32,000 bases of DNA, taken from the NCBI RefSeq assembly GCF_046546535.1, contig NZ_JBKGTW010000009.1, positions 30,529 through 62,528 of the forward strand, written 5' to 3'. Under the pieces are notes generated by a model, which was not told the origin of the DNA, did not search any database, and was given only the letters and a program-made list of their open reading frames with translations. Positions 19,611-20,809 of the stretch are shown here, in pieces. Made by a program: the position numbers and the translations under genes. Numbering within the stretch: position 1 is the first letter of the stretch; every line of letters starts with the position of its first letter. Origin of the DNA: Neisseria sp. WLZKY-1 (GTDB taxonomy: Bacteria; Pseudomonadota; Gammaproteobacteria; Burkholderiales; Neisseriaceae).

Positions 19611-19667
19611 CACCGGTGTTCTAATCCCTAAGCTCTGCGCCCTCCGGTTGCATTATGCCCCCACCCG

Positions 19668-19711
19668 AAACGGCCGGCCGAAAATAGGCTGATTTTCAGC
19701 CGGCCGTTTTT
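19668..19711 (+). other. GC-rich stem-loop bracketed by CCCACCC / CCCAACCC
   Basis: The 11-bp stem is aaacggccggc ... gccggccgttt, followed by a T-run. Confidence 0.6.
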
Positions 19712-19735
19712 CCCAACCCTTTTTTACCCACCCAA

Positions 19736-19849
19736 AGCATCACAGGCAAAAGGGGAGGGCGGTTTTTCACGGTTTATTTCAAACTGGGATGGAGTTTGAA
19801 AAAACCGCGAACAAACCGCCCACGTTATTCCCCTTTTGCCTGCGATGCT
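19736..19849. repeat. ~114-nt imperfect hairpin, copy A (conserved 65-nt core 19757..19821)
   Basis: The structure has an outer stem agcatcacaggcaaaagggga / tccccttttgcctgcgatgct. The inner stem is gggcggtttttcacggtttatttcaaact / agtttgaaaaaaccgcgaacaaaccgccc, and the loop is gggatgg. Confidence 0.8.
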
Positions 19850-19904
19850 CCCACCCTTTTGAGTCCGGGGAATCCGGCAGAGGGTACAGAAGCGACCCGT
19901 TTCG

Positions 19905-20197
19905 TTACAAGTCCGCCTTGTGGGTGGGCATGGCCGCTGTCAGTCCGGTTATCGCAGGCGTTCATATGGGGTTCCGTGATTAAAAAACCGCGCGGCCAAA
20001 AGCGCAAGGGGTATTCATAACGAAATGTAAACGGCCATGAAAAAGAAATAGTCTTTTTCATGGCCGTTTACATTTCGCTACAAACCTTCCCCTTGCGCTT
20101 TTGGCCGCGCGGTTTTTTCAACACTGCACCCCATACGAACTGCGATAACCGGACTGACAGCTTAGAAACCATGCCCACCCACAAGGCGGACTTGCAA
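19905..20197. repeat. ~293-nt near-perfect palindrome (centre near 20049)
   Basis: Perfect arm blocks of 25, 30, 21 and 23 bp are separated by small internal loops. One example is cgaaatgtaaacggccatgaaaaag/ctttttcatggccgtttacatttcg. Confidence 0.85.
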
Positions 20198-20288
20198 CTT
20201 CACTAGCGATCTTTCCCCTCCGCCAGCTCCTCCCGTCCTGAGCAGTGGACGCACGTTCTTTTATTAACCATCCTTTAAGGAGTCCACC

Positions 20289-20630
20289 ATGTATTACTAT
20301 TTTAACAAAGAAACAAACGAAATCAACGAAGTTGACAGAAAATATTTAACAATCGAGTTCATCGAGCCCTGTCTAGACAAAAATGAGTGCTATGGCCCTT
20401 CATTTTGGTATGACGATGAAACAGGATACATCATGAGAATTACAGAAAGCGGAGAGCGGGAACGGCTCTATAACCGGCCTTTCTGCAAAACCGAAGCAGA
20501 AATAGAGTTAGAACAAATCGCTTTGTTCTACATTGAGAAAAACAAGATACCCATCTTCCGAACTTACTCGGAAGCCGTAGATTTCGCACTACGACACATG
20601 CGCGACAAGCTAGCTTGGCTAGCTAGTTAA
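20289..20630 (+). CDS. Hypothetical protein (orphan prophage gene)
   Basis: The 113-aa ORF has a strong SD (ttaaggagtccaccATG) and AT-rich phage-like codon usage. I recognise no family. Confidence 0.7.
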   Translation: MYYYFNKETNEINEVDRKYLTIEFIEPCLDKNECYGPSFWYDDETGYIMRITESGERERLYNRPFCKTEAEIELEQIALFYIEKNKIPIFRTYSEAVDFALRHMRDKLAWLAS

Positions 20631-20664
20631 GGTCTAGCCGCCTGAAAGTTCAGGCGGCCAGACC
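20631..20664. other. 16-bp-stem hairpin made of an inverted pair of one-mismatch DUS-like 10-mers (GCCGCCTGAA)
   Basis: The sequence ggtctagccgcctgaa-agt-ttcaggcggccagacc lies immediately after the 113-aa ORF. Confidence 0.65.
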
Positions 20665-20674
20665 GTCCCACCCT

Positions 20675-20786
20675 ACGACATGGCCGAAAGGGTAGGGCGG
20701 TTTGTTCACGGTTTATTTCAAACTGGGATGGAGTTTGAAAAAACCGCGAACAAACCGCCCACTTTTTGCCTTTCGGCCTATGACGT
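20675..20786. repeat. ~112-nt imperfect hairpin, copy B (conserved core 20695..20761)
   Basis: The core differs from copy A by a single-nt indel. The outer stem has a different sequence (ggccgaaagg/cctttcggcc) but still pairs. It lies just downstream of the Zot-like gene. Confidence 0.8.
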
Positions 20787-20809
20787 TACCCACCCTAATC
20801 CGTAGCCCC

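What the first reader, a model, noticed from the sequence alone, without database searches (positions are those of the whole stretch)
19660..20795. Heptamer CCCACCC/GGGTGGG occurs seven times in 1.14 kb, always at the foot of a stem-loop: possible split G-quadruplex clamps or iterons
Exact copies lie at 19660, 19727, 19850, 19922 (as GGGTGGG), 20174, 20667 and 20789, with a near copy CCCAACCC at 19712. By eye I find only about two copies in the ~24 kb of GC-rich host DNA (6853 and 28677).

The placement is not random:
- The small hairpin 19668..19709 is bracketed by 19660 and 19712.
- Hairpin A (19736..19849) is bracketed by 19727 and 19850.
- Hairpin B (20675..20786) is bracketed by 20667 and 20789.
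- The two arms of the 293-nt palindrome each contain one copy.

The strand that encodes the structural genes is the window minus strand. By analogy with Ff phages this is the packaged ssDNA, and on it the motif reads GGGTGGG. Each hairpin is therefore flanked by G3-T-G3 ... G3-T-G3, giving four G-runs. These could form a G-quadruplex with the hairpin as a long structured loop. G3TG3 is also half of the G3TG3TTG3TG3-type G4 motif known to drive pilE antigenic variation in gonococci.

Alternatively, the heptamers could be protein-binding iterons for Rep or a host factor, or the junction scars of a small mobile hairpin module.
Basis: partly seen in the sequence, partly recalled or inferred. Interest (0 to 1): 0.75.

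Follow-up and report, generated by a model that had tools for sequence, protein, structure and literature searches.

The report
G-tract pairs bracketing phage DNA hairpins
In a filamentous prophage of a Neisseria-type bacterium and its relatives, several DNA hairpins on the packaged strand are each flanked by two GGGTGGG-type motifs that could close into a four-stranded G-quadruplex at the hairpin foot, a conserved design not previously described that can be tested directly.

Summary
CCCACCC/GGGTGGG occurs 7 times in 19660-20795, against 0.26 expected. Six of the seven coding-strand G-dyads lie within 4 nt of a hairpin foot (P about 5e-8).

The window holds a 7.6-kb dif-integrated inovirus prophage in a Neisseria-type host. 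The same design recurs in about 20 related phage genomes. Across 14 of them, 23 hairpins in about 11 sequence clusters are bracketed at 0-4 nt by G3-N(1-2)-G3 units. These sit on the coding (presumably packaged) strand only: 73 versus 2 copies.

- G tracts are never broken.
- The loop base is usually T, but TT, AT or A occur.
- Hairpin stems covary and fold better on the coding strand.

The brackets occur with two unrelated replication-initiator families (Rep_trans and G2P). They track the coat/assembly module, so they are not Rep iterons. They are also not the host's FtsK-orienting motif (KOPS), transposon scars or attC sites.

Best reading (about 0.45): they are split G-quadruplex/hairpin hybrids acting on single-stranded phage DNA, probably in assembly or complementary-strand synthesis. 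They also mark the boundaries of swapped gene cassettes. A sequence-specific protein site remains a serious rival. No structure or function has been shown experimentally.

The parts
20789..20795 (-). GGGTGGG, the 5' flank (coding-strand sense) of hairpin B. It lies 14 nt downstream of the zot stop codon.
   Evidence: Every genome of the clade has its first G-tract cluster within -78 to +51 nt of the zot stop.
20675..20786 (-). Hairpin B, a long module hairpin. Its conserved core hairpin is 20692-20764.
   Evidence: Fold dG -46 kcal/mol. The core matches covariance model R1 at 74.7 bits on the minus strand versus 43 bits on the plus strand.
20667..20673 (-). GGGTGGG, the 3' flank of hairpin B, 1 nt from the stem.
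20631..20664 (.). Inverted pair of a DNA-uptake-sequence (DUS) variant (GCCGCCTGAA). It forms a terminator-like hairpin after ORF113.
   Evidence: (repeat I23). L003 has an equivalent pair after its module a.
20289..20630 (+). ORF113, a reverse-oriented cassette gene of unknown function. Together with the terminator and hairpin B it forms a unit that is exchanged between relatives.
   Evidence: 56% identical to L003 6422-6754. No Pfam or PHROG family. Absent from L133, where homology resumes at window 20282.
19904..20198 (.). 295-nt palindrome. Its arms carry the heptamer pair 19922-19928 / 20174-20180, base-paired to each other.
   Evidence: (I1, I2, I3, I7). A large palindrome is present in every subclade. 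The heptamer there is GGGCGGG in L003 and GGGTGGG in L133.
19850..19856 (-). GGGTGGG, the 5' flank of hairpin A, 0 nt from the stem.
19736..19849 (-). Hairpin A, a long module hairpin. Its conserved core is 19754-19825.
   Evidence: dG -50 kcal/mol. R1 scores 79.1 bits on the minus strand versus 36.8 on the plus strand. A near-identical outer stem occurs in L133 8145-8274.
19727..19733 (-). GGGTGGG, the 3' flank of hairpin A and the first unit of the composite short module.
   Evidence: The composite G3TG3-N7/8-G3(T/A)TG3-hairpin-G3TG3 is conserved in L003 and L133.
19712..19719 (-). GGGTTGGG, the 5' flank of the short hairpin. The orthologous unit is GGGATGGG in L003 and L133.
19668..19709 (-). 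Short hairpin. Three unrelated hairpin sequences occupy this position in the window, L003 and L133.
   Evidence: (I15).
19658..19666 (-). GGGTGGGGG, the 3' flank of the short hairpin. This is the most universal copy and lies upstream of the conserved block in all subclades.
19541..19657 (-). Conserved non-coding block (...GGAGGGCGCAGAGCTTAGGGATTAGAACACC...GCGAAAATGAA-hairpin-TTTAGTTGAGTT).
   Evidence: Window 19615-19657 is identical to L003 over 43 nt. Variants are shared with phages carrying Rep_trans and with phages carrying G2P initiators.
20810..21979 (-). zot / pI-like assembly ATPase, the last gene of the structural operon.
   Evidence: Pfam Zot, 2.6e-37.
18896..18940 (+). attL: a dif-like site with a degenerate XerD-side arm.
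   Evidence: (D8).
26482..26526 (+). attR: the bona fide dif (TTCGCATAA-ATTATA-TTATGTTAAAT), located where host GGGNAGGG polarity converges.
   Evidence: (D8).

Best explanation
The heptamers are halves of a conserved cis-element of a clade of dif-integrating Neisseriaceae filamentous phages.

On the coding strand, certain stable hairpins are bracketed 0-4 nt from the foot by two G3-N(1-2)-G3 units, nearly always G3TG3. By analogy with all studied inoviruses, the coding strand is the packaged one. The four G3 tracts can close into a three-tetrad parallel G-quadruplex, with two 1-nt loops and the hairpin as the long central loop. This would be a quadruplex-duplex hybrid.

I propose that the structure forms when the genome is single-stranded. 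It would lock and mark these hairpins so that they stay folded and recognisable while the rest of the strand is coated by single-strand-binding proteins. The signal would most likely serve virion assembly or packaging, or host-driven complementary-strand synthesis. As a side effect, the modules act as boundaries at which reverse-oriented accessory-gene cassettes are exchanged between phages.

Shown here: the motif, its placement, its conservation and strand specificity, stem covariation, independence from Rep type, and coincidence with cassette boundaries.

Inferred: which strand is packaged, G4 folding, and the function.
For: - Enrichment and placement: 7 copies versus 0.26 expected. Six of seven units lie within 4 nt of a stem end, P about 5e-8.
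- Relatives: L003 has 9 copies against 0.64 expected, and L133 has 7 against 0.94.
- Strand bias in the clade: 73 on the coding strand versus 2 on the other. GGGCGGG shows no such bias (25:16).
- Both heptamers are invariant in 11 aligned modules, while the outer stems cannot be aligned yet still pair.
- 23 hairpins in 14 genomes, forming about 11 sequence clusters, are bracketed. None of the bracketing units has a broken G tract. Loops are T in most units and TT, AT, AT or A in four 5' units. L003 has GGGAGGG where L131 has GGGTGGG.
- A G cluster inside the zot C-terminus of L004-L015 keeps at least 4 G3 tracts even where the exact heptamer is lost.
- Hairpins fold better on the coding strand. 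There are 8-9 G.T wobbles versus 1 in the L004 group, and covariance-model scores are 75-93 versus 25-43 bits. 11 of 24 core pairs show compensatory changes.
- Literature: G3HG3-Nm-G3HG3 sequences form parallel G4s (PMC7221631). A hairpin in a long loop stabilises the G4, and 0-3 nt linkers do not matter (PMC8501965). Quadruplex-duplex hybrids have been solved (PMC4477648).
- The brackets track the coat/p94/zot module, not the replication module. The first module sits directly after the last assembly gene, as the Ff packaging signal does (established knowledge).
Against: - No experiment shows G4 folding or any function.
- The loop T is conserved far more than G4 folding requires: A, C and T are equivalent in vitro. 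This suggests sequence-specific recognition.
- The central loops here are 41-132 nt, well beyond those tested (up to 33 nt).
- Some heptamers lack an obvious partner dyad, for example the second core hairpin of the L006 type, which has only GGGTGGGTTAGTGGG on its 3' side.
- Co-inheritance with the structural module could simply reflect physical linkage to zot.
- Several modules per genome is unusual for a packaging signal.
- The packaged strand is inferred, not shown.
Confidence: 0.45

Rival explanations
1. The heptamer is a sequence-specific binding site for a protein that reads GGGTGGG at the foot of a hairpin, with no quadruplex involved. The protein would be a phage assembly or minor coat protein, or a host factor. 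The two direct copies, brought together by the hairpin, would bind a dimer.
For: - All seven positions, including the T, are almost invariant across lineages whose hairpins have diverged beyond alignment.
- The 3' unit is always G3TG3.
- Orientation and distance to the stem are fixed.
- The motif co-varies with the coat/p94/zot module.
- The palindrome of the window and L133 presents the heptamer as duplex DNA.
Against: - Four 5' units change the loop base or the spacing of the two G3 blocks (TT, AT, AT, A), while no G is ever lost.
- It cannot be Rep: the initiators belong to two unrelated families.
- It cannot be the p97 SSB-like protein: p97 has no detectable homolog in L004-L017 apart from a weak 33% hit in L008.
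- No clade-specific protein with a nucleic-acid-binding domain was identified.
Confidence: 0.27
2. The element acts in RNA. The modules would be 3'-UTR structures of the structural operon (hairpin plus GGGUGGG, possibly an RNA G4) that stop transcription, or protect the mRNA 3' end, and insulate it from the convergent cassette genes.
For: - The motif is on the mRNA-sense strand.
- The first module starts 0-51 nt after the zot stop in most genomes.
- The G.T (G.U) wobble excess and the strand difference in folding energy are larger with RNA parameters (-62 versus -34 kcal/mol).
- The motif co-varies with the structural operon.
Against: - Distal modules (hairpin A, the short module, the copy before the conserved block) lie about 1 kb downstream. 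They sit beyond a terminator-like hairpin, a convergent gene and a 295-nt palindrome, where operon transcripts are unlikely to reach.
- No T/U run follows the modules.
- No Rfam family matches.
Confidence: 0.12
3. The heptamers are recombination junctions. Hairpin modules with their adjacent reverse ORF would be mobile cassettes inserted at, or exchanged through, GGGTGGG. The mechanism could be target duplication, an attC-like folded site, or copy-choice at a replication block. The bracket would then be a scar rather than a working element.
For: - L003 differs from the window by one extra [module + terminator + ORF74] unit whose junctions lie 3 nt from 5' heptamers.
- L005/L008 and L007/L001 regain homology exactly at the 5' heptamer.
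- Window and L133 swap [module B + terminator + ORF113] as a unit.
- The region between zot and the long module varies from 304 to 860 nt among close relatives.
Against: - Outer stems, which would be the transposon ends, are the most variable part.
- The bracketed hairpins are unrelated in sequence.
- There are no copies in host DNA of the window or in nine Neisseriaceae genome loci.
- No empty site with a single heptamer was seen.
- The flanks are direct repeats, not inverted as in attC sites.
- No recombinase is encoded.
- Direct repeats around palindromes are deletion-prone, so their retention across the clade implies selection.
- Other breakpoints lie 20-33 nt from the heptamer.
Confidence: 0.1
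4. The pattern is a chance or compositional artefact of a repeat-rich, G+C-patchy non-coding region.
For: - Two of the seven copies are a mirrored pair in one palindrome.
- Hairpins A and B share a duplicated core.
- Outside the clade, coding-strand GGGTGGG copies are Gly-Gly codons.
Against: - 0 of 5000 shuffles reach the observed count.
- The heptamers lie outside the duplicated core (D4 = 19748-19831 / 20687-20770).
- Placement P is about 5e-8.
- The pattern is conserved and strand-specific in independent genomes.
Confidence: 0.01

Closest known systems
Stem-loop-containing quadruplex sequences / hairpin-G4 (quadruplex-duplex hybrids; Lim et al. 2015 PMC4477648; Ravichandran et al. 2021 PMC8501965)
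   Same: - Four G3 tracts.
- Two very short loops and one long loop that folds into a stable duplex stem.
- The stem begins 0-4 nt from the G tracts.
- The G3TG3-Nm-G3TG3 layout is the one studied in PMC7221631.
   Different: - Stems here are 13-52 bp with loops of 41-132 nt, versus up to 33 nt tested and up to 20 nt in the genome survey.
- The context is a single-stranded phage genome, not a human promoter.
- Folding has not been demonstrated here.
pilE G4 of Neisseria gonorrhoeae (G3TG3TTG3TG3; sequence from my own knowledge of Cahoon & Seifert 2009; biology in PMC3547852)
   Same: - The same bacterial lineage.
- Identical G3TG3 half-sites.
- The G-rich strand is the non-template strand of the local transcription unit.
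- G4-binding host proteins such as RecA exist in these hosts.
   Different: - The central loop is TT in pilE and a 41-132 nt hairpin here.
- pilE has a single chromosomal copy with an adjacent sRNA promoter and drives pilin gene conversion.
- Here there are multiple copies in a phage non-coding region, and no such promoter was found.
Ff (M13/f1/fd) intergenic-region hairpins: packaging signal [A] and complementary-strand origin [B],[C] (established knowledge)
   Same: - Orientation-specific imperfect hairpins on the + strand.
- Located in the non-coding region directly after the last morphogenesis gene.
- They act only in single-stranded DNA.
- A series of hairpins precedes the region next to the replication gene.
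   Different: - Ff hairpins have no flanking G-dyads.
- Here several similar modules occur per genome, interleaved with reverse-oriented genes.
- Function is untested.
- Packaging signals of integrative filamentous phages are otherwise largely unknown; in Xanthomonas phages they are 20-26 nt hairpins (10.1101/2023.12.30.573655).
Integron attC sites
   Same: - Structure is conserved more than sequence.
- They fold as single-stranded hairpins with conserved unpaired bases.
- One site follows each promoter-distal gene cassette.
- Cassette content varies between relatives.
   Different: - attC feet are inverted core sites (R''/R') that pair with each other, whereas here the feet are direct G-rich repeats that cannot pair.
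- No integron integrase is present.
Preferential binding of fd gene 5 protein to tetraplex DNA and its assembly on hairpin-constrained nucleotides (Oliver et al. 2000; Wen & Gray 2004, as cited in PMC9231167)
   Same: It is a precedent that an inovirus ssDNA-binding protein distinguishes G4 and hairpin-adjacent DNA from plain single strand.
   Different: The window's SSB-like p97 has no detectable homolog in L004-L017 apart from a weak 33% hit in L008. A specific p97-G4 interaction therefore cannot explain the conservation.

Membership tests
Canonical intramolecular G4 motif (G3+ N1-7)x3 G3+ | Four runs of at least 3 G | tested here: met
   Every bracketed hairpin has two G3-N(1-2)-G3 units.
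Canonical intramolecular G4 motif (G3+ N1-7)x3 G3+ | All three loops are 7 nt or shorter | tested here: not met
   The central loop is 41-132 nt. Only hairpin-less variants in relatives come close, for example L009 with G3TG4-N10-G3TG3.
Hairpin-G4 / quadruplex-duplex hybrid | The long loop forms a stable stem-loop with most of its bases paired | tested here: met
   13-52 predicted pairs, dG -9 to -51 kcal/mol, and the first paired base pairs with the last.
Hairpin-G4 / quadruplex-duplex hybrid | The stem abuts the G tracts through short linkers | tested here: met
   Linkers are 0-4 nt on both sides in all 23 cases.
Hairpin-G4 / quadruplex-duplex hybrid | K+-dependent tetrad formation shown by CD, NMR or a chemical probe | not testable with these tools
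   This needs oligonucleotide biophysics.
pilE-type recombination G4 | The sequence G3TG3TTG3TG3 with a short central loop | tested here: not met
   The half-sites are identical, but the central loop is a long hairpin.
pilE-type recombination G4 | An adjacent promoter whose transcript starts in the G4 and exposes the G-rich strand | tested here: inconclusive
   The consensus scan finds no promoter next to the heptamers, but the scan is crude.
Inovirus intergenic ssDNA cis-hairpins (packaging signal / complementary-strand origin) | Located in the non-coding region after the morphogenesis genes | tested here: met
   The first G cluster lies -78 to +51 nt from the zot stop in 18 genomes.
Inovirus intergenic ssDNA cis-hairpins (packaging signal / complementary-strand origin) | The hairpin is selected on one strand only | tested here: met
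   G.T wobble and energy asymmetry. Covariance-model scores are 75-93 bits on the coding strand versus 25-43 on the other.
Inovirus intergenic ssDNA cis-hairpins (packaging signal / complementary-strand origin) | Confers packaging or priming on a heterologous ssDNA | not testable with these tools
   This needs a transducing-particle assay or an ssDNA-to-RF conversion assay.
Rep-binding iterons of a rolling-circle origin | Repeats co-vary with the initiator that binds them | tested here: not met
   The same heptamer occurs with Rep_trans at 92%, 65% and 35-39% identity, and with G2P-family initiators. It is absent from phages with a Rep 44-56% identical to the window's.
MITE / transposon with target-site duplication | Terminal inverted repeats are conserved among copies, and copies are dispersed in the genome | tested here: not met
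   Outer stems are the most divergent part. There are no copies in host DNA.
Integron attC | Inverted core sites R''/R' pair at the foot, and an IntI integrase is present | tested here: not met
   The flanks are direct repeats, and no integrase gene is present.
KOPS (FtsK-orienting polar sequence) | Strongly polar in host DNA, converging on dif | tested here: not met
   Host GGGNAGGG is 11:0 left of dif and 0:2 right of it. GGGTGGG is 1:1 and 0:1.
Known RNA families (Rfam 15) | A match at the gathering score | tested here: not met
   Only sub-threshold generic hairpin (miRNA-model) hits were found.

The most novel reading that the evidence does not exclude
The G3TG3-hairpin-G3TG3 modules fold into quadruplex-duplex hybrids on the packaged single strand and are the recognition signal for assembly of this phage clade. 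Because they present pilE-type G4 half-sites in Neisseria cells, they may also engage the host's G4-handling recombination proteins (RecA, RecQ). That engagement would drive exchange of accessory-gene cassettes at the modules. This would be a natural, modular G4-based cis-element system in a virus.
Probability: 0.25. Interest if true: 0.85.

Novelty: new variant of a known kind. Interest (0 to 1): 0.68.

Why it matters
Cis-acting signals of integrative filamentous phages (packaging, complementary-strand origin) are largely unknown. This includes the Neisseria phages linked to meningococcal disease.

A conserved rule has emerged here: any hairpin, bracketed by two G3TG3 units, on one strand. 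It gives concrete elements that can be mutated.

If the brackets fold as quadruplexes, they would be a rare case of a natural quadruplex-duplex hybrid under clear purifying selection. The stems are far longer than any studied. They would occur in a genome that is truly single-stranded for part of its life, which removes the usual doubt about whether a G4 can form in vivo.

The shared half-site with the pilE G4 raises the testable idea that these phages interact with the Neisseria G4 recombination machinery.

The coincidence of modules with cassette boundaries may also explain how these phages swap accessory genes.

Tried and rejected
- BLAST of the whole prophage and of the non-coding region against 50,697 phage records found no match.
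- An exact core-hairpin pattern found nothing in viral contigs.
- The exact zot protein is not on record, so the source genome was not identified.
- ORF113 has no relatives in viral contigs.
- The junction pattern between the long and short modules found only L003.
- The first metagenome scan, with the 30-nt conserved block, found nothing.
- Rfam gave only generic hairpin hits.
- p97 has no relative among PDB sequences.
- Literature searches for G4 plus Neisseria filamentous phage, or GGGTGGG plus phage, returned nothing relevant.
- RNAalifold on the full-module alignment could not see the outer stems, because MAFFT cannot align them. It also proposed a spurious pairing of the 3' heptamer with the neighbouring terminator. 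I relied on single-sequence folds for the outer stems.
- Rejected as explanations: Rep iterons, a p97-specific site, KOPS, MITE with target duplication and attC, and chance.
- Heptamers outside the clade (L097, L120, L121) are Gly-Gly codons.
- The conserved block after the last heptamer looked at first like the plus-strand origin. It is shared by phages with unrelated initiators, so that reading was dropped.
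Full report
**1. The observation**

The near copy CCCAACCC is at 19712.

Dinucleotide shuffles of the 1136-nt region give 0.26 copies on average, and 0 of 5000 reach 7. The rest of the window holds three copies (3703, 6853, 28677), not two.

The hairpins exist. Six of the seven G-dyads on the coding strand lie within 4 nt outside a stem end. The binomial P is about 5e-8, and 0 of 2,000,000 random placements reach this.

The two copies in the 295-nt palindrome are one event seen twice. They pair with each other and read GGGCGGG in L003, so I set them apart from the others.

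**2. Context**

Window 18896-26526 is a 7.6-kb prophage of 42-45% G+C inside 62-68% G+C DNA. All its genes are on the minus strand:
- a Rep_trans initiator (24813-26186);
- a 97-aa protein (phrog_4994);
- coat protein B;
- a pIII-like protein;
- DUF2523/pVI;
- Zot/pI (20810-21979).

The prophage is flanked by direct dif-like repeats. The right one is a good dif (TTCGCATAA-ATTATA-TTATGTTAAAT). The left one has a degenerate XerD-side arm. This is the signature of an element integrated by host XerCD (established knowledge of CTXphi/VGJphi-type elements).

The host carries 49 DNA uptake sequences (DUS) in about 24 kb, mostly the AG-DUS dialect. Its GGGNAGGG motifs converge on this dif: 11:0 on the left and 0:2 on the right. 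The host is therefore a Neisseria-type bacterium, and the site is the chromosome terminus.

**3. Conservation**

- Zot and Rep searches recovered Neisseriaceae filamentous phages.
- In the 17 closest by Zot (L001-L017), GGGTGGG occurs several times per genome. It occurs essentially only on the coding strand (73 versus 2 across the window plus L001-L017), mostly downstream of zot and often in pairs 117-139 nt apart.
- GGGCGGG shows no comparable bias (25:16).
- More distant MDA-type phages lack the motif. The stray copies there are Gly-Gly codons.
- L003 has 9 copies against 0.64 expected. L133 has 7 against 0.94 expected.
- A metagenome scan with a conserved neighbouring block added L128-L134. 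Among them, L133 is a dif-flanked prophage 87-90% identical to the window over its genes.

**4. Anatomy**

The recurrent unit on the coding strand has three parts: a G3-N(1-2)-G3 unit, a hairpin that starts 0-4 nt away, and a G3TG3 unit 0-4 nt after the hairpin ends.

In 14 genomes I count 23 such hairpins in about 11 sequence clusters:
- long modules with a shared core hairpin (window A and B, three in L003, one each in the L001 and L004 groups);
- an unrelated 63-nt hairpin (L016/L128);
- three unrelated short hairpins at the same position in the window, L003 and L133;
- a 41-44-nt hairpin in L131 and L003.

Both heptamers are invariant in 11 aligned long modules, while the outer stems cannot even be aligned yet still pair. 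No G tract is ever broken.

The loop is T in most units. It is TT (window 19712), AT (L003, L133) and A (L003 7601, where L131 has T) in four 5' units. The 3' unit is always G3TG3.

A covariance model of the core hairpin finds it only in the window and L001-L015. It always scores better on the coding strand, and complete genomes have at least two copies 0.9-1.1 kb apart. 11 of 24 core pairs show compensatory changes. A bulged G and a T.T mismatch are conserved.

**5. Strand**

Folding is consistently better on the coding strand. The L004 group has 8-9 G.T wobbles versus 1. Its dG is -31 versus -22 kcal/mol with DNA parameters and -62 versus -34 with RNA parameters.

The hairpins are therefore selected as single strands of coding polarity. 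That means phage plus-strand DNA or mRNA. In all studied inoviruses the packaged strand has mRNA polarity (established knowledge, not tested here).

**6. What it is not**

*Rep iterons.* The window's replication module (Rep, p97, p71) is shared at 44-69% identity with heptamer-less MDA-type phages. The L004 group has a Rep only 35-39% identical and essentially no p97/p71 homologs (one weak 33% p97 hit, in L008). L013/L016 encode a G2P-family initiator, which is unrelated to Rep_trans. Yet all of them carry the brackets and the neighbouring conserved block. This also removes my first idea that the conserved block is the Rep-specific plus-strand origin.

*KOPS.* GGGTGGG shows no polarity in host DNA.

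*A transposon with target duplication.* The ends are the most variable part, the bracketed hairpins are unrelated, and host DNA holds no copy.

*attC.* The feet are direct repeats, not inverted, and no integrase is encoded.

*Known RNAs.* Nothing in Rfam matches.

**7. The quadruplex reading**

Four G3 tracts with two 1-nt loops and a structured long loop match the layout of hairpin-G4s and quadruplex-duplex hybrids:
- G3HG3-Nm-G3HG3 sequences fold as parallel G4s (PMC7221631).
- A hairpin in a long loop stabilises the G4, and 0-3 nt linkers make no difference (PMC8501965).
- Such hybrids have been solved by NMR (PMC4477648).

Several features of the comparative data fit a G4 better than a fixed 7-mer protein site:
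- G tracts are inviolate.
- Loop base and loop length are occasionally free.
- The hairpin identity is irrelevant.
- The G cluster in the zot C-terminus of L004-L015 keeps at least four G3 tracts even where the exact heptamer is lost.

Against this, T is conserved far more than G4 folding requires. The loops here are 41-132 nt, against at most 33 nt tested. Some heptamers have no clear partner. A sequence-specific protein, or a protein that reads a G4 with T loops, remains a strong rival.

**8. Function**

The brackets track the coat/p94/pIII/zot module. p94 is 48-93% identical within the clade and at most 44% outside it.

The first module or G cluster lies -78 to +51 nt from the zot stop in all 18 genomes. 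This is the position of the packaging signal in Ff.

A further universal copy precedes a block that is 43 nt identical between the window and L003, although their proteins are about 66% identical.

Elements that are shared across unrelated initiators, act on one strand, and travel with the assembly genes are best explained in one of two ways. They could be assembly or packaging signals, or host-dependent complementary-strand origins. I favour assembly, with low certainty, because physical linkage to zot could produce the same co-inheritance.

A precedent exists for inovirus proteins distinguishing tetraplex and hairpin-adjacent DNA: the fd gene 5 protein (as cited in PMC9231167 and PMC7023247).

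**9. Cassette boundaries**

- L003 equals the window plus one extra [module + terminator + ORF74] unit, with junctions 3 nt from 5' heptamers.
- L005/L008 and L007/L001 regain homology exactly at the 5' heptamer. Other pairs do so 20-33 nt upstream.
- The window and L133 swap [module B + terminator + ORF113] as a unit.
- Among close relatives, the spacing between zot and the long module varies from 304 to 860 nt, with different reverse ORFs in between.

Each reverse-oriented accessory gene is thus followed, in its own direction, by a terminator-like hairpin and a module. I read this as recombination at conserved, structure-prone modules. It looks like a consequence of the modules rather than their selected function, but the integron-like layout deserves a proper test.

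**10. Comparison and novelty**

The closest known things are:
- hairpin-G4s / quadruplex-duplex hybrids (same layout, much shorter stems, human promoters);
- the pilE G4 (same half-sites and host lineage, different loop, place and role);
- Ff intergenic hairpins (same place and strand logic, no G-dyads).

I found no description of G-dyad-bracketed hairpins in any phage. I rate this a new variant of a known kind: inovirus single-strand cis-hairpins with a new, conserved bracket.

**11. Limits**

- Everything about folding and function is inferred.
- The source organism was not identified.
- About 20 genomes in roughly five to six lineages is a small sample.

Noticed in passing
window 18896-18940 and 26482-26526: The prophage is flanked by dif-like direct repeats. 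The right one is a bona fide dif and the left one has a degenerate XerD-side arm, so this is an XerCD-integrated element at the chromosome terminus. Good dif-like sites occur only in the heptamer-bearing clade (window, L003, L010, L013, L133) and not in MDA-type loci.
   Followed up: partly
window ~19752, ~20690, ~21212-21217 (+ strand): The host FtsK-orienting motif GGGNAGGG is perfectly polar around dif (11:0 left, 0:2 right). The prophage carries 4 copies, all in the host-permissive orientation, against about 0.15 expected per strand. Two lie inside hairpins A and B, on the strand opposite the heptamers. This may be an adaptation that keeps FtsK moving towards dif.
   Followed up: no
window 1-18895 and 26527-32000: DNA uptake sequences are extremely dense: 49 GCCGTCTGAA in about 24 kb, 43 of them as AG-DUS AGGCCGTCTGAA. 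The prophage has none apart from a variant inverted pair (GCCGCCTGAA) at 20637/20658.
   Followed up: partly
window 18500-26700 versus flanks: The prophage is 42-45% G+C in a 62-68% G+C host. Its closest relative, L133, sits in 50-55% G+C DNA. This suggests recent transfer between Neisseriaceae with different base compositions.
   Followed up: no
window 19615-19657; L003 7378-7420: A 43-nt non-coding block is identical between phages whose proteins are about 66% identical. Variants (TTAGGGAT..GCGAAAATGAA..TAGTTGAG) are shared by phages with Rep_trans and by phages with G2P initiators, so it is not a Rep-specific origin. Its role is unknown.
   Followed up: partly
L013 2248-3129, L016 1405-2388; L013 909-1604, L016 472-1113: One subclade has swapped the Rep_trans replication module for a G2P/HUH-type initiator while keeping the structural module and non-coding elements. 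It also encodes a reverse-oriented protein with a TonB C-terminal domain.
   Followed up: partly
L008 13-51, L009 38-53, L010 1119-1160: Poly-G runs of 15-35 nt lie next to GGGCGGG..TGGGG upstream of Rep in three metagenomic contigs. L012 has only GGGGCGGGTGGGG at that place. Whether this is a real hypervariable tract or an assembly artefact is unknown.
   Followed up: no
window 22636-23099: The pIII-like gene contains seven 24-nt tandem repeats encoding PKPDDGKQ, followed by a long Gly/Ser-rich linker built from 9-12-nt repeats. This region is a likely hot spot for length variation in the adsorption protein.
   Followed up: no
window 19014-19226 and 19231-19437 (+ strand): Two tandem paralogous small ORFs (70 and 68 aa) each have one membrane helix and a KEE-rich tail. 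They are followed by an intrinsic terminator at 19441-19460. Homologs of the first occur only in L003, L131 and L133.
   Followed up: partly
L128 6164/13454, L132 6157/13499: Modules recur at a 7.3-kb period, so these are tandem prophage arrays. Arrays of this kind are what CTXphi-type phages need to produce virions from the integrated state.
   Followed up: no
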